Shown in pieces: positions 2,648-17,990 of a DNA stretch of 64,000 nucleotides. Each line of letters begins with the position of its first letter. Position 1 is the stretch's first letter. The DNA comes from Eledone cirrhosa (taxonomy: Eukaryota): assembly GCA_964016885.1 (NCBI GenBank), contig OZ024741.1, positions 221,960,001-222,024,000 of the forward strand, written 5' to 3'. The position numbers and the translations under genes are program-made. Under the pieces are notes generated by a model. The model was not told where the DNA came from. It ran no database searches and saw only the letters and a list, made by a program, of their open reading frames with translations.

Positions 2648-3443
2648 ACTTCTAATTTCTGGTATAATTCTATCAAGATAGCCTTCTTTGGTATTATGAT
2701 TAGATTGGTATTTTAACCATCTTTTGATCTTATATTATTTATACTCCAATCCTACAAACTGTAGAGTGCTACTTATCCGATATTTGCATTGCTTTATTGT
2801 GCTACAATAAAACTCACCTCCTACATTATATATATATATATTCACTCACATATATATATATGTACACACACACACATTCAACACAGAAAGAATATATATA
2901 TTTTTTTTAATTTAACTTAAAATCAACAGATTCAACACACGTTTTTTACTATGAAAAATAGTCTAACAAGCTGGGTATGTAAACCCCTGAAAACAGAAAA
3001 AAAGTGGACAGTGTCGTCTGAGGGACTCATGCTCACACCTGCTGTATACTAGAATGCTGTGCTTACGATTTGCTTCTAAGAAAGGCTAGAGAATTGTTCC
3101 ATTATTTTAAGCCTTATTGGCTGAGATTAACTTTGCCTTCATCCTTACAGGGTCGATAAAATAAAGTACCACTAATGCACTGGGTAATAGCTGGCCTTGT
3201 GCCAAAAGTAGAAGTAATTATTTTAAACCTTATCCATTGGCCAGTACATAAACAAACAATCTATATTTAGAAATCTTGAATAGCTTATGGCAGTGGTCGC
3301 CAACCTTTCTAAAACCGAGGAACCTTCTAAATATTTTGAATTCTTCACGGAACCTATACAATACAAAACTTTTCAAAAAAAAATAATAAAGTATTTATTT
3401 ATTTTAGTGTTTCATGCGTGTGTATGTAATCGAACACAATTAA

Positions 3444-5339
3444 CTAGTGGCTTTTCTGCTGCTGCGCCTCATCAGTGAGTTTAGAAAATCGAGGTTCAAC
3501 ACTAGTTAATGCCAGTCTCATACACTCGTCAATTGCTGACAGTTTATTCCTCTTCTTTGTGCAGATTTCTACCAACTGCGAAAACCCTTTTTCGCACAAG
3601 TAACTAGATGGGAATAAAGTCAAATATTTCAATGCAAGTTGGCTGATTTTATTAAACTCCCCAATCAAGAATAAGTCGATCCATAGTCCTTTCTTTCTGC
3701 TTTCGAATATCACTTTCAGGTCTTCGTTTGAATTCAAATCCATCGACTGATGTAAGCATTGTGCAGGTAGTAAATTTTTACAATTTCCAGCGTCATTTTC
3801 TGACACTAACTGCTCGATCTCGGTGAACGGGGTTTTTATCCATAAATTTCCGCTAACAATATCTTTTTCCATCAAGTCAAAATAATCTGAAAAACTTGTG
3901 GAAAGCAATTTTAAATGAGAAAGAATAATCTTCTTTAGACTGCTGGAGTCAAAATCTTCTCTCTTTTTAAGTTCTATTTCAAGGTTTGAAAGTAATGAGT
4001 AATTGTCCGATTCAATTCTTTTTATAAAGATGTTTAATTTTGATTGAAAATATGTAATAAAATTGATTGAAGTAAAAATATCTGCATTGTTACCCTGAAG
4101 ACACTTATTTAGTTTGTTCAGTTCACCAAAAATGTCTACTAAATAAGCGAGTTGCACATTCCATTCATTGGTTTCTAATACACTTGCTCTTTCATCATTC
4201 TGTTTTTTTAGAAAAACTATTATTTCTTCTCTCAGTTCAAAAACTCTCTTCATAGCATCCCCAAAAGACAGCCAACGCACATCATTGTTCAATAACAATC
4301 TATTATAATTACTTCCAGAAGATTCACAAATAGATTCAAACATTCTAGAATTTTTTGCTCTTGCATGGATCAAATTGATAATTTTGACAATGTTTTTCAG
4401 CTGGTCATTTAATATTTGAGTATCTCTGTCTTTGAATTTTTTTTAACACCAAACCTCTCGATGAATCATACAATGATTTGAAATACAATTTGGGGTCTAT
4501 TCTTTAATTTTTGCAATCAAACTAGAATTTTTACCAGTCATTGCAGCTGCTCCATCTGTTGTTATTGAAGTCAACTTGCTCCAAGATACATCATTTTTTA
4601 AAAAATACTCTTCAATTTTATTGAATATATCTTGACCTTTAGTTGTGATGTCTAATACCAGACAAAACAAATACTCTTCTACTAATTCTTTTTTATCAAG
4701 GTCTACAAACCGTACATAGCAAATTAATTGAGCCTTGTTATTAATATCCGTAGTTTCGTCCACTTGCAGACCAAAACATGTGATTTTCTTTAGTGCAGTT
4801 AGTATCTGATTTTCTATATCTGAAGAAATATCAATTATCCTTCTTTTTACAGTATTTGCTGACAATGGTAACTGGCTTAATTTTTCTTTGTCCTTAATAC
4901 TGCAGCTTTCAAAAAGATTCTCTGTAGCAATGTTTATACTTAGCAGAATTAACTGTTCTAATGTAAATGGTTTCTTGTTTTTACCAATCAAATGTGAAAT
5001 CTCAAAAGATGTTCTTGTTAAAGCTTTATTTCTATCTGACTTTTTACAAAACAAGTCATACATATTAGCTTGTGATTTTTTTATGTTGTTTTTCAGCGAA
5101 GTAAAGTATTCCAGTGACTTGTTTTTATCATTGGTGTGATTAGTATCAAGGTGTCTTTTAAGTTTTGCAGGATTTAAACAGCTATTTGATAGAACTTTTG
5201 AACATAGCAAACACATGGGCTGATCTGGTGTATCTTTTTTAGTGTCAGCTTTTTGAAATCCATATCTAACATAATCATCACACCACTGTCTAACCTTACT
5301 GCTGGTATCTAACTTCAGCTTCTTTGCAGTAGACATCAT
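3444..5339 (-). pseudogene. Buster/ZBED8-like hAT transposase, interrupted by one stop and one frameshift
   Basis: BED finger (CLLC..LKRHLDTNH), DETTD, TDGAAAMTG, HCMIHRE just after the stop at 4497-4499, VRWLS, and SSYLCEKGFS dimerisation motif. ORFs 4497-5339 and 3444-4373. Confidence 0.93.
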
Positions 5340-5905
5340 ATCAATGTTATTTATCTACAGTTAACATTTTTTAATATGACATTAATAAACAATAGAAATT
5401 AAGTTTTTTTAATTACAAAAAGTACTTAAATTAACTTTGGCGATATCCAATTTTAGCGGCATTTAGGCCGCTTACTTCAATGTATGAGGCGATTCCAACA
5501 AATTTACATTCCCCGTTTTTTTTTAGCCGTTAAAAGAAATATAGATTTTTTTTTTTTTTTTTTGCGATTTATTAGAGAGGGGGGGGGGGTGCTCCCTTCT
5601 TCTCTTACCTGTACAAGCCGATATAGAGAGATGGCCCACATACACGGGCCATTATTGCTACTTTCACCCATCTTTCATGGAATTGGCTGGGACTGAGTGC
5701 CTTTTTCTCCAAGAGGACCATTTGTTGGCCGGCGACATATCCCCACAGTTTCCTCGTTGCAAACGCATCTGGGACATTTCTTTTCCAAGGGGTTTCCGTC
5801 CCGGAATCCGTGTCTGTAGAGCCTTTCCCGAACGGGCAGGGCCCCTCGGTATAATATTAAGTATTAGTGGTTGTAATAAAAATGCAATCAAAATGTAATA
5901 AATAC

Positions 5906-6041
5906 CTTCACTGATTTCTTTCCTTATATTATCAACAGAAGTTGGTATGTCACCCAAAGTTCGCTTTGTATGTTCCCGAATAGCAGTGAATTTTGATAAA
6001 ATTGTTTCTAATTCCTTCTCCACAGTAAGACAAATATCCAT
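5906..6041 (-). pseudogene. RMND5: Captured RMND5/GID2-like first coding exon (left-arm copy)
   Basis: MDICLTVEKELETILSKFTAIREHTKRTLGDIPTSVDNIRKEISE resembles the RMND5A/B N-terminus as recalled (MDQCVTVERELEKVLHKF..). It ends at a phase-1 AG|GTATTT donor followed by AT-rich intron-like DNA. Confidence 0.78.
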
Positions 6042-6258
6042 GTGTAGTTGAAGAGGATAAGTAGGAAAGAACAGTCATTTAAATTTACAGATGTGGTGTT
6101 TGGCAGGGTTTGAGATATATAGAAAAATAATTATTTACAGAAAAAGAAAATAATAATAAAGAATTATTATAATTTTTTTAAAGATTTATATCTTTTGGGA
6201 CTTTTGGAAGCAAATTTTAAACTGTATATCGCAACAATAAAAAAGAAAAAATATTTCT

Positions 6259-6499
6259 TTAAACAATATATTGTTCCGATATACAGTTTAAAATCTTTGG
6301 GAAACATCTACCGTCTCCACTCATAAAGCTGTCATTTCGCCACCGCCACATGAATTCATTCAAATATGACTGAAACATGGGTCGGCTAGTGCCGTTTATT
6401 TATTTATTTTTTTTTTTTGGCATGAGACCAGAGTCCTTCAATATGTTGGGTATGTGTTCCTGATACCGGATCAACAAAATTTAGTGAATGATTCACTGT
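6259..6499 (-). pseudogene. C-terminal remnant of a Merlin (IS1595/ISXO2-like DDE) transposase
   Basis: Manual translation: [29 protein letters not shown], then a frameshift in a poly-A run, then GTSRPMFQSYLNEFMWRWRN..CFPKILNCISEQYIV*. VNHS-FVDP-HTQxIE and YLxEFxWR are Merlin/IS1595 signatures. Confidence 0.9.
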
Positions 6500-6756
6500 A
6501 TATTAATATAAGTTTCACTTTATGAATTTCAGTTTAAATATTTTTTTCTTTTTTATTGTTGCGATATACAGTTTAAAATTTGCTTCCAAAAGTCCAAAAA
6601 GATATAAATCTTTAAAAAAATTATAATTCTTTATTATTAATTTCTTTTTCTGTAAATAATTATTTTTCTATATATCTCAAACCCTGCCAAACACCACATC
6701 TGTCCATCTGTAAATTTAAATGACTGTTCTTTCATACTTATCCTCTTCAACTACAC

Positions 6757-6892
6757 ATGGATATTTGTCTTACTGTGGAGAAGGAATTAGAAACAATTTT
6801 ATCAAAATTCACTGCTATTCGGGAACATACAAAGCGAACTTTGGGTGACATACCAACTTCTGTTGATAATATAAGGAAAGAAATCAGTGAAG
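6757..6892 (+). pseudogene. RMND5: Captured RMND5/GID2-like first coding exon (right-arm copy)
   Basis: Same 45-codon peptide as the left copy. 136 nt from ATG to the GAAG|GTATTT donor at 6893. Confidence 0.78.
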
Positions 6893-9800
6893 GTATTTAT
6901 TACATTTTGATTGCATTTTTATTACAACCACTAATACTTACTATTATACCGAGGGGCCCTGCCCGTTCGGGAAAGGCTCTACAGACACGGATTCCGGGAC
7001 GGAAACCCCTTGGAAAAGAAATGTCCCAGATGCGTTTGCAACGAGGAAACTGTGGGGATATGTCGCCGGCCAACAAATGGTCCTCTTGGAGAAAAAGGCA
7101 CTCAGTCCCAGCCAATTCCATGAAAGATGGGTGAAAGTAGCAATAATGGCCCGTGTACGTGGGCCATCTCTCTATATCGGCTTGTACAGGTAAGAGAAGA
7201 AGGGAGCACCCTCCTCTCTAATAAATCGCAAAAAAAAAAAAAAAAAAATCAATCTATATTTCTTTTAACGGCTAAAAAAAAGGGGGAATGTAAATTTGTT
7301 GGAATAGCCTCAAACATTGAAGTAAGCAGCAACTGCAGCAAGTAAGCGGCATTTAGGCCGCTAAAATTGGATATCGCCTTAACTTTAATTTTAGATATTT
7401 GGAAAAACTTAACTAGTTAAAGAAAAATTTTAATTTTTAAAATTTGAAATTTCTCCATATTAGGATGGCAAACATATTATTTAAAGTCTTATAATAATAT
7501 TAAAATATTAGGGGTTACTGAAAAAGGTGCAAATTTATAAACAACTATAAGAAATTTTTTTCAGAGTCCAGCACTTCCTGCATATACTTCTTTATGGTCG
7601 TATTTAATATTATTGGTAATGTAAATATATTTAAATATCCGCCATACTAAAAGGTGCAAAAAATGCAAATCAGCTGATAGTGTAGATGTGACGATGGTAT
7701 TGGAAATTAATTCAGATATCTTCTATCTATTTTGACTCAAAGTTAGATATAATATAAGAAGGCTTTAAGGCTGCGTTAAACATATATTAGATTGGAACAA
7801 ATAAAGTTTAGTCAAATGTTTGTGTACATATATATTTATTGTATGAAGTAATTTCTCAATTGTGAATGCAGATGTCATCAAATGAATACATAATTGTGTG
7901 GCAAAGTTTATAGTGTATGCATGGAATACAAAATTACCTTTGTTAGTAGTCGAAACTTTACAGGCGTTATATTTTCTGTACAAAGTACAACAGAATGTAA
8001 CGTGTTCTTATTTAGAATTGTCTGTGGAACTGGATGCATGTTGAAAACGACTAGTAAGCGAGTTCACTCTGTGAGGAAACTTTAGGCGACTTTAAAGCTT
8101 TTGTGAGGACAGCAGATTAAAACGTGTTCGCTATTGAAAACATTCTACTGAACTTACGTTGTGAGAACAGCGAACTGACCCTGCCTCTTGGCTGAGAGAC
8201 CTCGCTGAACTGAAGTTTTCAGTTTAAAGTTATGCTGTCATCGACCAACATTTGCTTGTTCATGATTGGTCAATTTCTAAGTTCAATTAGTGTATTATCA
8301 GTAGTAGTCAAATCCTCGGAATTCAGAAAACTATGTCTTTCCAAGAATTGATGTGAAATTGAAAGTATTCAATTTCCACGAATCCCAGAACAGTATTTTT
8401 CTGCTAATTCAAGTGAGAAACTGAAAGTAGTGTTTTCCACGAATTGGAGTGGAGAACCTATGTACACTACAATAGTACTCGTTCATTTATACATTGCACC
8501 TTTGGCATTTTCTTTGCACCTTTTTCAGAAAACCCAAAATATTAATGGTAATGTAAATATTTATTTTTTTAAGGAACCCGGAGTTTGTTTTACGGAACCC
8601 CAAGGTTCCGCGGAACCCATGTTGGCGACCACTGGCTTATGGGACGTCACCAGGGGCTTATATGTCCACCATGTTTGATTATTTTTCATAGTAAAAAACG
8701 TGTGTTGAAGCTGTGAATGAACCAGAACGCAATTTTGTAGAAAATAAATATCATTGAATTAAATAAAATAAACTGCAAAATGAAATATGTTGGTGCAAGT
8801 TTGTATAATTTGCATGTCAAAAATGTAGTATCCCATAAACATACATCATCACCATTTAATGTTTATTTTCCATGTGCATGGATTAGCAGAGTTATCCCAC
8901 TCTGAGACTAGATAGGTCAGATGACTGTCTCATATGTTCTATTCTGACATGGTTTCTGTGGCTGGATGCCCTTCCTAATGCCAACTACTTCACAACATGT
9001 ACCAAGTGTGTGTTTATTGCAGCCCTGTCACTACCTTTTTACAGGGTAGACCAGGTGATTTTTATCATGGCACCAGCACTACCACTTCACAAAGTGGACT
9101 GGTTGCATTTTATTATCACACCAACACTACCATTTATTGATACTAAGGTGTTATATTGTGTCATCCTCAGCCAAACTGGGAAGGTAGTCATGAGAGTGGG
9201 GAAGATGAGAGCATGTTGGGGGAAGGGAGACAAGATATTTTTGCTTGCCAATGCAGGGGTGTATATATTGACAGATACATTACAAAATATGTGTATGCAC
9301 ATAGACTAGCAACAAACTGTGTGATGAAAATTTTGACTCCAAGAAATAAATGAATAGTGTATGTGAATTTGATAGAAAAGTTCTATCAATATTCTTTGTA
9401 ATGGAAATTGTGGTTACTCCCACATCAGAGGAAATTTGACACTTACACCAGAGTTGTCTAAATGTAAGTGTCAAATTACAAATGATGTTACAGCATATTA
9501 TTTTGGTTCACTAATAATATCTAGGCGATATTTAAAGGCAGCGTTGCATGTATTTTGTATTTCATAGAAATCTGGCATAGTTAACCTTTTTTTTTTTTTG
9601 TAACCTCTAGGTTTTAGGTTTCGATATCTATTTCTAACTATAACATTTTTTATACTAACCTGGCTCTGGTTCTATGAAATATCATTCCAAATTTGAAAGG
9701 GTTCCAATTTAAATTAAATCCTTCCAACATGATTTTCTATGAGAACCATAGGTTAAGTTACTTATCTCAGTAATGAAATATTTAATAATTTTTTGTAAAT

Positions 9801-10646
9801 CTTTCAAAATTATTCATTACTCCTTTTGATACCAAACTGGCCAACACCTGCTCTGGTTCTATGAAATAGAATCCTCATTTTAAAAAGTTCTTATTTTAAT
9901 TAAAATCTTCCAACATAATTTTATATAAGAACCATATGTTTATAGCAATATTTTAGTAATTATATAATGACTTCATTAACTCTTAACATCTTGTATAAAA
10001 TATCTGAAAGCAGGTTTGTTAATTCAAATGTTTTTAGTATCATTTTTTCTAAAACTAATGCTGCATATGCATAACAAAGTTGTTAAAAACGTGTAATAAT
10101 TTAACAGAAAATATCTAAAAACGGGTTAGTAGACATAACGGGAAAATTTACAATAAACTAAAGTAAAGGCTTTAATTTTTTAATGTGATGCAGACATAGT
10201 GCTGTTTTATACTTTTGTCATGCTAATGTGGTTTCATGTGGTGTAGGACATTAAAAGTTACTTAAAATTGAGTGTATTTTACTAGAAATATGGTAAAAAA
10301 ATAAGGTTAAGATATTTTATAACTATCGCTTTATACTGAATTATATATGCATGACTATTGAAATTTAATGATATTGTGGTTAAACTTCTTTTTGGTGTTG
10401 GTATCATTCACAATTTTATCACATACATTTTTTTGTTATTTTTTTTTGTTATGACCATGCTGTAAAATGGAGAGGTAGAGAGGGCTCATGAGTCCAGTAA
10501 GACATCCTCTCTAGTGCTGGTGGCATGAATAAAAGCACCCAGTCCATGATGTAAAGTGGCACTGGTGTTAGGAAGGGCATCCAACCAGTGTATCAATGCC
10601 AAAACAATTATGAGCACAGCAACAAATATATAGGAACAACAAAAAT

Positions 10647-13576
10647 ATGAAGACGTCGCATCTCAGAGTTGCAAAGAGACTAGTCGCAGGCAAACATCTT
10701 AGCTATAAGCTTTTCTGGGTAGGTAAGGATGATGGGTTAGGGGGAGTAGGCATTTTCCTGGCTGAGAGATGGATCAATAAGACAATAGAGGTAGTTCGAG
10801 TTAATAATCGAATAATTAAGCTTAGATTAGTTGTAGGCAGGAGACTACTGACAATCATCTCTGCCTATGCTCCCCAAGCAGGCCTAGGCAAAGAAGAGAA
10901 AGACTGCTTTTAAGAGCAACTTTTACAAACAGCCACAATGACAGAGGACGGAGACATCGTTATGCTAGCAGGGGACTTCAATGGTCATGTTGGACAGCTC
11001 AGGATGGTTACACTGGGGTACATGGTGGGCACGGTTACGGCTCAAGAAATGAAGAAGGAGTGAGACTTCTTGAATTTTGTGATGCAAGTTCACTGACTAT
11101 TTGCAACACTAACTTCCAGAAACCTGCCAACCACCTAATAACCTACAAATCAGGTGAGCACATAAGCCAGATTGACTTCTTACTAGTTAGGCAGCGGGAC
11201 AGGCAGATAGTGTCAAATACCAAGGCATACCCTGGGAAAGAATGTACCCCACAGCATAGGTTAGTCGTTAGTGATATCTCAGTAAGCAAGAGATGGAATG
11301 AGACATACAGGAAGGTGTGGAGAAGAAAGGTCTGGAAGCTAAAAGACCTTTCACTAAAATACAAATTTAGGAAAGCCCTTCAAGATGTGTATGACGAAAA
11401 AGAAGACGTATGACATAGATAATAACTGGAATTTCTTACGTGACAACTTACTGCAGGCTACTGATGAAACTTGTGGCTGGAACAGAGCTCCAACCAGACA
11501 GAGAGTGACCTGGTGGTGGAATAGCACAGTAGATAGGCCAATTAGAGAAAAAAGACTAGCATGGAAAGCTTGGAAAAAGGGTGGGAGTAGAGAAGGATAT
11601 ACAGCCGCTAAGAGAAAAGCTAGACGTCAGGTGTACTTAGCATGCAGGGAGGCTGAGAGTAGGAGGTTTATCAATGTTCTGCGACGGAAAGATCAGAGGC
11701 GTGCGGTGTTCCACATTGCAAGGCAGTGTGTCAATGCAAATCAGGATGTTGTTGGAGATAAATGTGTCCGGGATGATGCCGGTGTACTTAGTGTCACGAA
11801 TGATCAGAAAAAAGAGGCCTGGAAATGTCACTATGAGAGACTGATGAATGTGGAGAACGAATGGGAGAGAGAGAAATTACCCTCAGTAGATCCGACAGAG
11901 GGACCAGCTATTGAGATTGACGAATATAGTGTCCAAGAAGTGATTAAGGAAATGAAGAATGGTAAGGCTGCTGGACCGTCGGGGATAGTTGCTGAGATGC
12001 TGAAGGCATCAGGGGACGTAGGCACTAAACTGGTTGCGCGCATCATCAATCAGGCTATATATGGTGGTGTCATACCCAAAGACTGGTGCAGCAGTATTCT
12101 CATAAATTGCTACAAAGGTAAGGGGGATGCTCTGGAGAGGAGCAATTATAGGGGTATAAAACTGATGGATCAGGTTCTGAAAGTGGCAGAAAGGATATTA
12201 GCATAACTAATTAGAGAAAGGATCAAACCAGATGAGATGCAGTTTGGTTTTGTGCCTGGGAAAAGTACAACAGATGCCCTCTTCTTGGTGAGACAATTAC
12301 AAGAGACGTTCTCAGAGAAGAATAAGCCACTATACTTAACCTTTGTTGACCTAGAGAAGGCCTTTGATAGGGTACCCCGATCTGTCCTCTGGTGGTCCCT
12401 AAGGAAACTAGGTGTTGAGGAATGGCTTGTGAGGACAGTGCAAACTTTGTACAGAGGTACTGTCAGTAAAGTCAGGGTAGGAATGGTGTTTAGTGAGGAA
12501 TTCCAGATACAAGTAGGAGTACATCAAGGTTCGGTCCTCAGCCCGCTCTTGTTCATTATAGTCCTCCAAACCATAACAGAGGAGTTTAAGACTGGCTGTC
12601 CATGGGAACTTCTCTATGCTGACAATCTGGTTCTTATAGCAGAATCAGTAGAGGAGCTAGAGAATAAATTCTGGCTATGGAAACAGCAGTTGGAAGCAAG
12701 AGGACTGAGAGTGAACCTAGCTAAGACAAAAGTGTTGATGAGTATAAAAGAGGACAAAACTCTGATTGCGTCAGAGAAATGGCCATGTTCGATATGCAGA
12801 AAAGGAACTGGCATAAATTCTATAAAATGCACACAATGCAGATCCTGGGTACACAACAGATGTAGTGGGATAGCGGGCAAACTAACAGGTAGGGAGAAAT
12901 ACGTATGCAGTAGATGTACAGGGAAATTAGACAGTAGAAGTCACATTGATAGACACATTTTTCAAATGCAGGCGGGTGCTATAGAAGTGGTGGATAGCTT
13001 CCGGTACCTAGGAGATCAGATTAGCATGGGAGGGGGGGTGTTCTGAGGCCATAGTATCTAGAATAAGGATGGGTTGGAAGAAGTTTAGGGATCTGCTTCC
13101 TCTGCTGATGAAGAAGGGTTTCTCCCTGCGTACGAAAGGCCGGTTATATCATGCCTGTGTGAGGAGCGCGATGCTGCATGCTAGTGAGAGATGGGCAGCA
13201 ACTGCAGAGGATATGCGACGGCTGGAGAGAAATGAGGCAAGCATGCTCTGTTGGATGTGCAATGTCAATGGACATCCATGCTGGGTCGTTGAGAGAGAAA
13301 CTGTGTCTGAGAGGGATAGAATGTAGTGTGCGAGAGAGGAGACTGCGGTGGTATGGATATGTGATGTGCATGGAGGATGACTGATGGGTGAAGAAGTGCC
13401 AGGAAATGCCAGTTGAAGGAAGACGTGGTAGAGGTAGACTATGAAAAACATGGGTGGAGATGGTGTGAACAGACCTCAGATCGCTGAAGCTCATGGTGGA
13501 GATGACGAAGGACCATGACAAGTGGAGAGATGCTGTTCTGAATAAGACCCGTCCCACCCTTGCAAGCAGACGTAAA

Positions 13577-13608
<32 letters not shown>
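10647..13608 (+). mobile_element. Near full-length RTE-clade LINE (APE endonuclease, RT with PHD-like finger), degenerate
   Basis: GGVGI, ISAYAPQ, GDFNG, SQIDF, QHRLV (EN); GKAAGPSG, QFGF, FVDLEKAFD, GVHQGSVLSP, YADN, FRYLG (RT); (GAT)n tail; several stops and frameshifts. Confidence 0.95.
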
Positions 13609-16439: not shown

Positions 16440-16812
16440 TGTCAGATAGACAAAGAATTTTATATAAGAATGTACATCATTTTGGGTGGGGGCGATATTT
16501 CTTTCCAGGTCAATGTTTTCTGATGGTATACAGTATTTAATAATGCTATTTTTTGATCCTCTACTAATCTAAGTATAACATAGACACTAATTAAGTATAA
16601 GTATTGAAACATATATAAATGATTTGAAAGAATTCATTTCTGTCTTCTTTTATATATATAAAGGGTGGGAGAACTTAGTCGTGTCAAGGACATAACAGCT
16701 ACCCTAGTGATGGTGATCTACACAATAAAAGCACCCAGTACATGCTGTAAAGTGGTTGGTGTTAGGAAGGGCATCCAGCCATAGAAAGCTTGCCAAACTA
16801 TGTAAATCTTGT

Positions 16813-17990
16813 GTACTCAAAAGATGTTGTGGGATAATGAGTAGACGAACAGGAAGGGAGAACTTTGCATATAGAAGATGCACAGGAGAAATCGAGAGGA
16901 AGAGTGCCAATGATATAAAACTTTTCCAATCACAGGAAGGTTCCATAGATTCTGATATCTAGTTGACCTAATTAGCAGCAGAGGAGGGTGCACCGAGAGT
17001 TTAATAGCTAGAATAAGGAGAGGATGGAAGAAGTTTAGAGAATTACTCCCACTGTTGACAACAAAAGGTTTCTCTCTATGTACAAAAGGAAGACTGTATG
17101 ATGCCCGTGTGCAGTGCGTGATGCTGCATGGTAGTGAAACATGGGCTGTGACTGCAGTGGACATGCGTAGACAAGAGAGAAATGAAACAACTATACTTCG
17201 TTGGCTCTGCATTGTAGGTGTGAGAGAAAGACAGCTTGGACGAACTAAGGGAGAAGCTGGGTTTAAGAGGAATCAGAGGTGGTGTGCAGGAGAGAAGACT
17301 GCATTGGTATGGACATGTGATGCACACAGACTATGACTGATGGGTGAAGAAATGTCAAGAAATCCCAGTGGAAGGAAGCTGCATTAGAAGACAACTAAGA
17401 AAAACCTGGGCAGAGGTTGTGAGAGCTGACCTCAAATTGTTGAGACTGCCAGAGGAGATGATGAAGGAATGCGACAAGTGGAGAGATGCCATGCTGAGAA
17501 GGACCCATCCAACCCATGCAAGCATGGAAAGCAGACGTAAAAATGACGATGATGATGATGATTATGATAGAAAAGTAAACAAGGCCTTGATACCTTCATA
17601 GAAATGGTCCTGCTCAGTGAGTAGGAAAGGCGTGGATAGAAATTCCATCTGCTGTACCAAAGGCAAACTATGGGTACACATGAGATGTAGCAAAATCTCA
17701 ACTAGGGTAGCAAAGAATGTAGTTTTACATGTGGTTGATGCACAAAAGCAGTAAGCAGCAAGTACTCACAAGAAACAAGATCTATCAAATTCTAAGAAGG
17801 TTCTGTAGAAGCAGTTTACAGCTTCTGTTTCCTGGGTGACCAAATTAGTAGTGGAGGTGGGTTGTTCCGAAAGTACAGTAGCCAGAGTGAGAATGGGATG
17901 GAGAAAGTTCAGGGAGTTACTACCGCTGTTAGCTACAAAAAGTTTTTCCCTCAAAATGAAGGGCAAATTGTCTGATGCGTGTATACAAAC
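16813..17990 (+). mobile_element. Two tandem RTE LINE fragments (16813-17566 with GAT tail; 17567-17990)
   Basis: GWRKFRELLPLL, MLHGSETW, KTWAEVV and PHD-region remnants. Confidence 0.85.

What the first reader, a model, noticed from the sequence alone, without database searches (positions are those of the whole stretch)
5906..6892. Pack-Merlin: captured RMND5/GID2-like exon carried in both TIR arms
Each arm holds ATG plus 45 codons resembling the N-terminus of RMND5 (CTLH/GID E3 ligase subunit). Each ends at a splice donor followed by AT-rich intron-like DNA, implying genomic DNA capture rather than retrocopying. The two copies point away from each other, so any read-through transcript would fold into ~800 bp of dsRNA containing host exon sequence. 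It is a candidate source of siRNA or ADAR substrate acting on the real gene, and a mobile ATG+donor cassette for exon shuffling (inference). Such capture is well known for plant Pack-MULEs; I know of no description for Merlin or in molluscs.
Basis: partly seen in the sequence, partly recalled or inferred. Interest (0 to 1): 0.9.

Follow-up and report, generated by a model that had tools for sequence, protein, structure and literature searches.

The report
Merlin transposon lends host exon onward
A cut-and-paste transposon of the Merlin family picked up the first coding exon of the host gene RMND5, carries it in both arms and spread it to about 90 places in the genome, and in one derivative that exon is spliced onto the transposase message of an unrelated transposon, where it likely acts as a regulatory leader rather than making a useful protein.

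Summary
Observation confirmed. Window 5439-7378 is a 1,940-bp element with an 8-bp target duplication and ~810-bp inverted arms, each holding ATG + 45 codons + donor. The source is this genome's own RMND5 gene on another contig (7 of 136 coding bases differ; same donor, confirmed by a spliced contig). Sister elements with the same ends carry a Merlin (IS1595-type) transposase; the window's spacer is its 3' remnant. The exon occurs in at least 140 copies at 91 loci and evolves neutrally as protein. The exon then forms a 31-codon upstream ORF, in frame with the transposase behind one TGA. siRNA or ADAR action on RMND5 is untested. Verdict: a Pack-Merlin, new variant of Pack-TIR elements; interest 0.65.

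The parts
5439..7378 (.). Non-autonomous, palindromic Merlin element carrying RMND5 exon 1 in both arms (1,940 bp)
   Evidence: Ends and 8-bp duplication; 10 of 11 other copies of the enclosing hAT show a single copy of the 8-mer at the empty site, 1 has a small deletion there
5431..5438 (+). Target-site duplication TTAACTTT, left copy
7379..7386 (+). Target-site duplication TTAACTTT, right copy
5439..5460 (+). Perfect 22-bp terminal repeat beginning GG (left end)
   Evidence: 70 forward and 69 reverse exact matches in the genome, 0 for the reversed control
7357..7378 (-). Perfect 22-bp terminal repeat (right end)
5584..5851 (-). Internally deleted 3' piece of a LINE retrotransposon (zf-RVT region), left arm
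   Evidence: Longer version in sister L096 hits Pfam zf-RVT E 3.8e-7 and aligns at about 80% to a LINE in L101 down to its 3' end
5852..6187 (-). Captured RMND5 segment, left arm: ~170 bases of 5' flank/UTR, coding exon part, donor, ~50 bases of intron 1
   Evidence: blastn to host locus L051, alignment
5906..6041 (-). RMND5 coding exon part (ATG + 45 codons + 1 base), left copy; GT donor at 5905-5904
6252..6500 (-). 3' remnant of the Merlin transposase gene (broken frame, includes the last catalytic block)
   Evidence: 93-98% identical to the transposase 3' end in sister elements; translation
6497..6538 (.). 42-bp piece from the region upstream of the Merlin transposase
   Evidence: 42 of 42 identical to L095:3936-3977
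6603..6947 (+). Captured RMND5 segment, right arm
   Evidence: family branches at 6947 in contigs
6757..6892 (+). RMND5 coding exon part, right copy; GT donor at 6893-6894, used by a family member in an RNA-type run
6947..7214 (+). LINE 3' piece, right arm
3291..8634 (-). Enclosing hAT element (terminal repeat CAGTGGTCGCCAAC, duplication GCTTATGG) with a transposase interrupted by two stops (frames 5354-4497 and 4442-3444); the Merlin sits 84 bases upstream of the first frame, left-arm donor pointing at a candidate acceptor ending at 5355
   Evidence: use of this acceptor not shown

Best explanation
This is a defective Merlin DNA transposon that carries the first coding exon and splice donor of the host's own RMND5 gene in both inverted arms, belongs to a family with at least 140 exon copies at 91 loci, and likely works as a mobile, orientation-independent first-exon/splice-donor cassette rather than as a source of RMND5 protein. 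History (inferred from sister copies): a transposase-bearing Merlin gained, just behind its transposase stop, about 390 bases of RMND5 (-170 to +221 from the ATG) followed by a LINE 3' end; most likely by template switching on genomic DNA during repair (my odds 0.55, against 0.35 for a LINE-made RNA chimera). That right arm was then copied over the left end several times at different breakpoints, giving palindromes; internal deletions gave non-autonomous forms such as the window's. The peptide drifts neutrally. The donor remains intact and is used: one palindromic derivative inserted into the 5' end of a hAT transposon, which then spread it to 14 loci; there the exon is spliced to the hAT acceptor, which removes the Merlin's right end as an intron and places a 31-codon upstream ORF, ending in TGA two codons before and in frame with the transposase ATG (junction shown; translation effect inferred). 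In that derivative the DNA from just upstream of the Merlin transposase is fused to the RMND5 leader in both arms, so the Merlin promoter likely drives the transcript (inferred). The window copy itself is a single insertion in a broken hAT and is probably without function of its own.
For: Ends, TSD, identical arms. Host source: no Merlin DNA in 36 kb around the host gene except the shared piece; downstream exons hit human RMND5A 50-95 (E 1.3e-12) and 232-284 (E 2.6e-20), CTLH, RING-end exons; spliced three-exon contig in run X4 and GT/AG in-frame junction. Merlin: DDE_Tnp_IS1595 inside sister elements; 10 of 55 TSD-bounded elements keep transposase DNA; 21 two-armed, 16 one-armed, 18 without RMND5; one-armed transposase-bearing forms L096, L098 keep the longest cargo. 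Neutral drift: 6 changes shared by 64 of 64 full exons are all amino-acid changing; 35 later variants are 28 replacement to 7 silent, 24% silent expected. Donor GT kept in 97 of 101 arms that cover it. Donor use: X4 contig leaves the arm exactly at 6892 into sequence found in the genome only in the hAT family; DNA run X1 has no such loose end; joined form in 0 of 179 fetched loci; the 30 exon bases carry the element's variant, not the host's. Same inner duplication GTAATTTG in 10 of 13 copies, different outer duplications, introns 515-544 bases in 8 copies, intact 883-aa frame in 2 of 13.
Against: The spliced junction rests on one contig in one run whose library type is not on record (RNA inferred from spliced host contigs and missing intron cover); contigs give no strand, start site or level. 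The junction cannot be assigned to one copy and does not come from the window copy. No intact Merlin transposase of this family was found (longest open frame 286 aa, L160) and no cargo-free ancestor, so the capture junctions cannot be read. The hAT has a candidate donor of its own 49 bases before the acceptor, so it may not need the captured exon. All 6 founder changes being amino-acid changing has a chance of about 0.19 under neutrality, so it neither shows nor excludes selection. De-duplication of arms was imperfect (at least one window arm counted twice).
Confidence: 0.82

Rival explanations
1. The cargo entered through RNA: a LINE reverse transcriptase copied its own 3' end and then unspliced RMND5 RNA (template switch or 5' transduction), inserting the chimera into the Merlin.
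For: In the least-deleted copy (L096) the RMND5 piece is followed without a gap by a co-oriented, 5'-truncated LINE that runs to its natural 3' end; the piece starts in the transcribed 5' region (host contigs cover it). LINE/mRNA 5' chimeras, mostly sense and first-exon, are described in human (10.1101/2025.02.02.635956, passages).
Against: It holds 85 bases of intron, whereas the described chimeras mostly end at splice junctions; no clear duplication flanks the cassette (by eye); no such LINE in the host's 36 kb today; no cassette outside a Merlin among the loci examined.
Confidence: 0.35
2. The palindromes matter mainly as hairpin RNA: read-through transcripts give siRNA or ADAR substrates that tune the real RMND5 mRNA.
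For: 796 arm-to-arm pairs predicted; 44 of 292 host exon-1 21-mers are present unchanged in the arm; 47 of 91 loci are two-armed; X4 contigs cover the whole arm, intron piece included.
Against: Transcripts starting in the spacer would hold one arm only and form no hairpin; no editing-type difference specific to the RNA run was listed (contigs drop rare variants, so this is weak); no sign of conservation; long inverted repeats fold whatever their function.
Confidence: 0.2
3. The RMND5 N-terminal peptide, alone or fused to the hAT transposase by stop read-through, is a working product (for example competing for the CTLH partner).
For: 60 of 64 ungapped exons keep ATG and an open frame; the junction is in frame behind a single TGA followed by C in 11 of 11 copies that keep the outward exon; TGA-C is a leaky context (recalled).
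Against: Replacement/silent ratio is neutral; the hAT-borne exon has lost 15 of 45 codons; in-frame has a prior of one in three; the same stop would already lie in the hAT's own leader.
Confidence: 0.08
4. The cargo came from another species by horizontal transfer.
For: 5% coding and 8-9% leader divergence from the host gene.
Against: A working foreign ortholog would differ mostly at silent sites; all 7 differences change amino acids. An unnamed database protein identical to the host peptide exists, and the next relative shares none of the element's changes.
Confidence: 0.04

Closest known systems
Animal Pack-TIR elements, incl. Ssk-FB4 of Drosophila (PMC8277862; passages, sections 9 and 14, supplement searches)
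   Same: TIR DNA transposon holding a host gene piece with intron sequence, re-transposed with distinct target duplications, transcribed as chimeric RNA.
   Different: Of their 370 cases most are hAT or Tc/mariner and single-copy; 'Merlin' does not occur in the case table, the multicopy cases have a handful of copies, and the one mollusc (aplCal1) had 0. Here: Merlin, 91 loci, cargo duplicated into both arms, some carriers keep the transposase gene.
Plant Pack-MULEs (PMC3310237, passages)
   Same: Gene fragments carried by TIR elements; acquired sequence can become part of extended TIRs (stated there with citations).
   Different: Different superfamily and kingdom; here the arm copy holds a whole ATG-to-donor unit and arose repeatedly at different breakpoints.
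HelibatN3 Helitron carrying the NUBPL promoter, first codons and splice donor (PMC4778049, passages)
   Same: Closest in working: a mobile host first-exon + donor cassette that splices to downstream acceptors.
   Different: Rolling-circle element with the host promoter captured; here a cut-and-paste Merlin, both orientations at once, host promoter probably not captured, and the shown partner is another transposon's transposase.
Merlin / IS1595 superfamily (PMC8101967, passages; PMC13282606, one table passage)
   Same: 5'-GG ends, 8-bp duplication, Zn-ribbon + DDE_Tnp_IS1595 transposase; Merlin is already reported from octopus genomes.
   Different: No host-gene cargo is mentioned in the passages found; arms of ~810 bp exceed the described 24-462 bp.
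LINE-1 loci that co-opt a host promoter and first exons by splicing (10.1101/2025.02.02.635956, passages)
   Same: A transposon's coding message starts with host exon sequence.
   Different: Retrotransposon in an intron of the host gene; here the exon was delivered by a second DNA transposon and travels inside the hAT.

Membership tests
Merlin superfamily | Terminal inverted repeats starting 5'-GG | tested here: met
   definition from PMC8101967
Merlin superfamily | 8- or 9-bp target-site duplication | tested here: met
   8 bp here with empty sites; 55 distinct elements with 8-bp pairs at 0-1 mismatch, which was the selection rule; exact-length test gave 8 and no other length
Merlin superfamily | DDE_Tnp_IS1595 transposase between the same ends | tested here: met
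   Sister elements: E 1.6e-13 and 4.3e-11, Zn-ribbon below cut-off; window spacer is its 3' remnant; none intact
Merlin superfamily | TIR length in the described 24-462 bp range (a range, not a diagnostic) | tested here: inconclusive
   One-armed progenitor-type copies have short imperfect repeats; palindromic copies have ~810-bp arms by secondary duplication
Pack-TIR (Tan et al. 2021) | Internal host sequence with one unambiguous parent locus not itself inside the element | tested here: met
Pack-TIR (Tan et al. 2021) | Re-transposition after capture (distinct duplications) | tested here: met
Pack-TIR (Tan et al. 2021) | DNA-mediated, not retro-mediated, origin of the cargo | tested here: inconclusive
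   Intron piece present but joined to a LINE 3' end
RMND5/GID2 (parent gene) | N-terminus continuous with LisH/CTLH/RING exons in a spliced transcript | tested here: met
   78 of 98 short database relatives also read G at position 46, as expected from a shared phase-1 donor
hAT superfamily (carrier of the nested derivative) | Short TIR starting CAG, 8-bp duplication, transposase with hAT dimerisation domain | tested here: met
   Dimer_Tnp_hAT E 1.2e-7 and DUF4371 E 8e-23
Exon-trap cassette of HelibatN3 type (works like) | Captured donor splices to a downstream foreign acceptor | tested here: met
   One contig in run X4, acceptor mapped
Exon-trap cassette of HelibatN3 type (works like) | Captured host promoter drives the transcript | not testable with these tools
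   Contigs give no start site; host contigs extend upstream of the captured part; the hAT-borne form keeps only ~38 leader bases
Hairpin-RNA (endo-siRNA) locus or ADAR substrate | Small RNAs or editing from a transcript spanning both arms | not testable with these tools
   Only contigs were available

The most novel reading that the evidence does not exclude
A three-party transposon gene: an autonomous hAT family whose every genomic copy carries a Merlin palindrome, and whose transposase message is started by the Merlin promoter, opened by a host RMND5 exon and throttled by that exon's upstream ORF (with possible read-through into an RMND5-transposase fusion), while the same palindromes feed hairpin RNA that cross-silences the essential host gene or shields the transposons from silencing.
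Probability: 0.25. Interest if true: 0.85.

Novelty: new variant of a known kind. Interest (0 to 1): 0.65.

Why it matters
It extends gene capture by cut-and-paste transposons to the Merlin superfamily, at a copy number far above the multicopy animal cases in PMC8277862, and the genome preserves the intermediate steps (one-armed carrier with transposase, repeated fold-back into palindromes, deletion derivatives, nesting in a hAT). A host first exon with ATG and donor pointing both ways is a ready exon trap at about 90 sites, and one use is already visible: it heads another transposon's transposase message. That gives a testable natural case of how a DNA transposon gains a new leader and dose control, and of whether host-derived sequence in a palindrome sets the host's silencing against its own gene.

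Tried and rejected
Pfam and the ESM Atlas gave nothing useful for the 45-aa peptide; the word-based protein search found no hit. Run search: no RNA holder listed on record; X4 was judged RNA only from its spliced contigs. Three other low-identity hits checked as possible parent loci were degraded element copies (L052-L055). Searched for a cargo-free Merlin of this family: all copies fetched with 85% or more transposase identity carry at least part of the cargo, one fragment (L175) has no ends; the 18 small elements without RMND5 mostly keep LINE pieces and read as deletion derivatives. Searched for a Merlin-free hAT ancestor: none at E below 1e-15. Junction as a genomic deletion or retrocopy: rejected. 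Junction as host-exon trans-splicing: rejected because the host contig is unbroken and the junction overlaps the element-variant contig. Splicing of the window's own left donor to its hAT: only a weak candidate acceptor, out of frame, no contig (one search placed that acceptor one base off and is superseded). Editing: no RNA-specific difference listed, but contigs cannot show it. No complex or structure prediction was run because no binding claim is made. Earlier scan notes: nothing found.

Full report
OBSERVATION. Window 5439-7378 (1,940 bp) is bounded by a perfect 22-bp inverted repeat starting GG and by the 8-bp duplication TTAACTTT. Its arms align over about 810 columns. Each holds ATG + 45 codons + one base and a GT donor, at 6757-6892 (+) and 6041-5906 (-), identical and pointing outwards. 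The element sits inside a 5.3-kb hAT element (3291-8634) whose transposase is interrupted by two stops; of 11 other copies of that hAT, 10 show the 8-mer once at the empty site and 1 has a small deletion. The predicted fold pairs 796 bases arm to arm, as any such palindrome would.

THE PARENT GENE. The peptide's best PDB hit is human RMND5A 1-42, weak on its own (E 0.047). A genome search gave 141 matches. One, on contig C5, has no transposon ends and shares only 344-396 bases with the element. Its peptide scores E 0.00043 against RMND5A; downstream exons match RMND5A 50-95 and 232-284, CTLH and the RING end. Run X4 has a contig joining three host exons, and the first junction is GT/AG and in frame at exactly the donor the element carries. 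In 78 of 98 short database relatives the residue at position 46 is G, as read-through of a shared phase-1 donor would give. Window arm against host: 7 of 136 coding, 13 of 144 leader and 1 of 48 intron bases differ. All coding differences change amino acids, which is not the pattern of a working foreign ortholog, so the cargo is the genome's own.

THE CARRIER IS A MERLIN. Pfam DDE_Tnp_IS1595 hits lie between the RMND5 arms of several sister elements, and the window's spacer 6252-6500 is the 3' end of that transposase. GG ends, 8-bp duplication and this domain are the features given for Merlin in PMC8101967 (passages). No copy has an intact frame; the longest is 286 aa.

FAMILY AND HISTORY. The 140 non-host matches fall into 91 loci, 47 with outward-pointing pairs and 44 with one detected copy (clustered at 5 kb, lower bounds). 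Among the 179 loci fetched, 55 distinct duplication-bounded elements were found: 21 two-armed, 16 one-armed, 18 without RMND5; 10 keep transposase DNA. One-armed, transposase-bearing copies (L096, L098) hold the longest cargo: RMND5 from -170 to +221, then directly a LINE 3' end (zf-RVT, E 3.8e-7; about 80% identical to a LINE in L101 down to its tail; the L1/Tx1-type label is recalled). The GC-rich 268 bases in each window arm are a shortened form of that LINE piece. Two-armed copies differ in where the second arm starts, so the fold-back happened several times (inference). In 109 arms (imperfectly de-duplicated), 97 of 101 that cover the donor keep GT; 64 exons are ungapped, 60 of them open; 6 changes are shared by all 64; the other 35 variants are 28 replacement to 7 silent against 24% silent expected; mean pairwise distance 1.3%. 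The peptide is therefore drifting and the spread is recent relative to the capture.

CAPTURE ROUTE. It does not rule out unspliced RNA, and the co-oriented LINE end makes a LINE-made chimera a real rival (such chimeras are described in human; 10.1101/2025.02.02.635956, passages; its supplements were not seen). No clear duplication flanks the cassette and no empty Merlin was found. I put 0.55 on DNA template switching, 0.35 on the RNA route.

THE DONOR IS USED. Four coded runs hold the arm. X1-X3 cover introns and show the element exon at roughly a hundred times single-copy depth, so they behave as DNA; X4 has spliced host contigs and gaps in introns, so it behaves as RNA, though its type is not on record. 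Laid on the right arm, X4 has one contig that leaves at 6892, the donor, into at least 255 foreign bases; X1 has none. The bin depths place its start at 6863, overlapping the element-variant contig (about 11 of 32 units of that contig's depth; not an expression measure), and the host contig is unbroken, so the spliced exon is an element copy. The foreign bases occur in the genome only in a 4.4-kb hAT family at 14 loci. All 14 were fetched. Of the 13 analysed, 10 have both hAT ends with outer duplications that all differ (9 matching at 0-1 mismatch), 10 show a nested Merlin palindrome between the same duplication GTAATTTG, 8 have a 515-544-base GT-type intron from captured donor to acceptor (1 more has an insertion in it; 1 of the 8 has a changed acceptor), and 2 keep an 883-aa hAT transposase frame from the ATG. 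The fourteenth keeps the Merlin end at the same place but has lost the exon. Copies differ by 1.7% on average (10 copies). So one Merlin insertion was afterwards spread by the hAT. The joined form is in 0 of 179 fetched loci. In these copies the exon lacks 15 codons; after splicing it reads 31 codons, then TGA, two codons and the transposase ATG in the same frame, in 11 of the 12 copies with an acceptor (the twelfth has lost the outward exon). The spacer fuses 55 of 59 aligned bases from just upstream of the Merlin transposase to the last ~38 bases of the RMND5 leader, which suggests the Merlin promoter starts the message (inference). The hAT also has a candidate donor of its own 49 bases before the acceptor, so dependence on the captured exon is not shown.

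MECHANISM. Shown: capture source, Merlin identity, spread, neutral drift, intact donor, one spliced junction onto a hAT transposase. Inferred: capture route, repeated fold-back, promoter, lowering of transposase output by the upstream ORF. Untested: hairpin RNA effects on RMND5; 44 of 292 host exon-1 21-mers are matched perfectly, so cross-targeting is possible, but transcripts that start in the spacer carry one arm only. The window copy's left donor points at a weak candidate acceptor of its own broken hAT, out of frame and without RNA support.

COMPARISON AND NOVELTY. Pack-TIR elements are known in animals (PMC8277862; passages, sections 9 and 14): 370 cases, mostly hAT and Tc/mariner, few multicopy; Merlin appears in its supplements only as a column head of the element counts, and the sea hare had 0 cases. 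Acquired sequence within extended TIRs is noted for plant MULEs (PMC3310237, passages). A mobile first-exon + donor cassette is known from the bat Helitron HelibatN3 (PMC4778049, passages). Merlin is reported from octopus genomes (PMC8101967; PMC13282606, one table passage). Nine searches of the open library (listings only, apart from the papers named) showed no Merlin with host cargo and no captured exon heading another transposon's transposase; subscription journals and Repbase were not searchable. The host species was not established here.

VERDICT. Real; a Pack-Merlin, new variant of a known kind, with an unusual downstream use. Interest 0.65; confidence in the main account 0.82.

Noticed in passing
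L129-L141, L166 (14 loci): Young hAT family (1.7% mean distance) in which every copy carries the Merlin insertion; two copies have intact 883-aa transposase frames; no related hAT without the insertion in the genome.
   Followed up: yes
L154:846-4673; L090:987-6041; L160:670-3527: Merlin copies in which the fold-back reached into the transposase, giving two head-to-head transposase genes or a partial inverted copy: ready hairpin sources against the transposase itself.
   Followed up: partly
L096:3300-3745; L095:3936-4180: The region upstream of the Merlin transposase is itself a short palindrome (an inverted copy of about 110-250 bases), so fold-back also affected the left end.
   Followed up: no
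L160:1320-2400: Longest open Merlin transposase frame (286 aa, all three acidic blocks) ends in an A-run; several copies break in the same run, which could include assembly errors.
   Followed up: no
L128:~920-1290 (host RMND5 intron 1): The captured intron piece ends inside the start of a very high-copy short repeat in the host intron (depth; SINE label recalled).
   Followed up: partly
L128:300-615 and upstream: An X4 contig extends about 860 bases upstream of the RMND5 ATG at low depth: long leader or a divergent transcript; CCAAT- and ETS-like motifs (recalled labels) lie 280-340 bases upstream of the ATG, outside the captured part.
   Followed up: no
L092:1263-1880: A small family member inserted into the captured exon of a larger family member, with its own 8-bp duplication.
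   Followed up: partly
window 10600-13600, 16700-17600, 1556-2734: Decayed reverse-transcriptase elements (LINE-type frames at about 10600-13500 and 16900-17600; a Penelope-like frame at 1556-2734, labels recalled, not scanned).
   Followed up: no
genome G000: At least 150 Merlin-type transposase matches of several other families, some with open frames of about 330 aa; they could supply transposase or hold other cargo.
   Followed up: no
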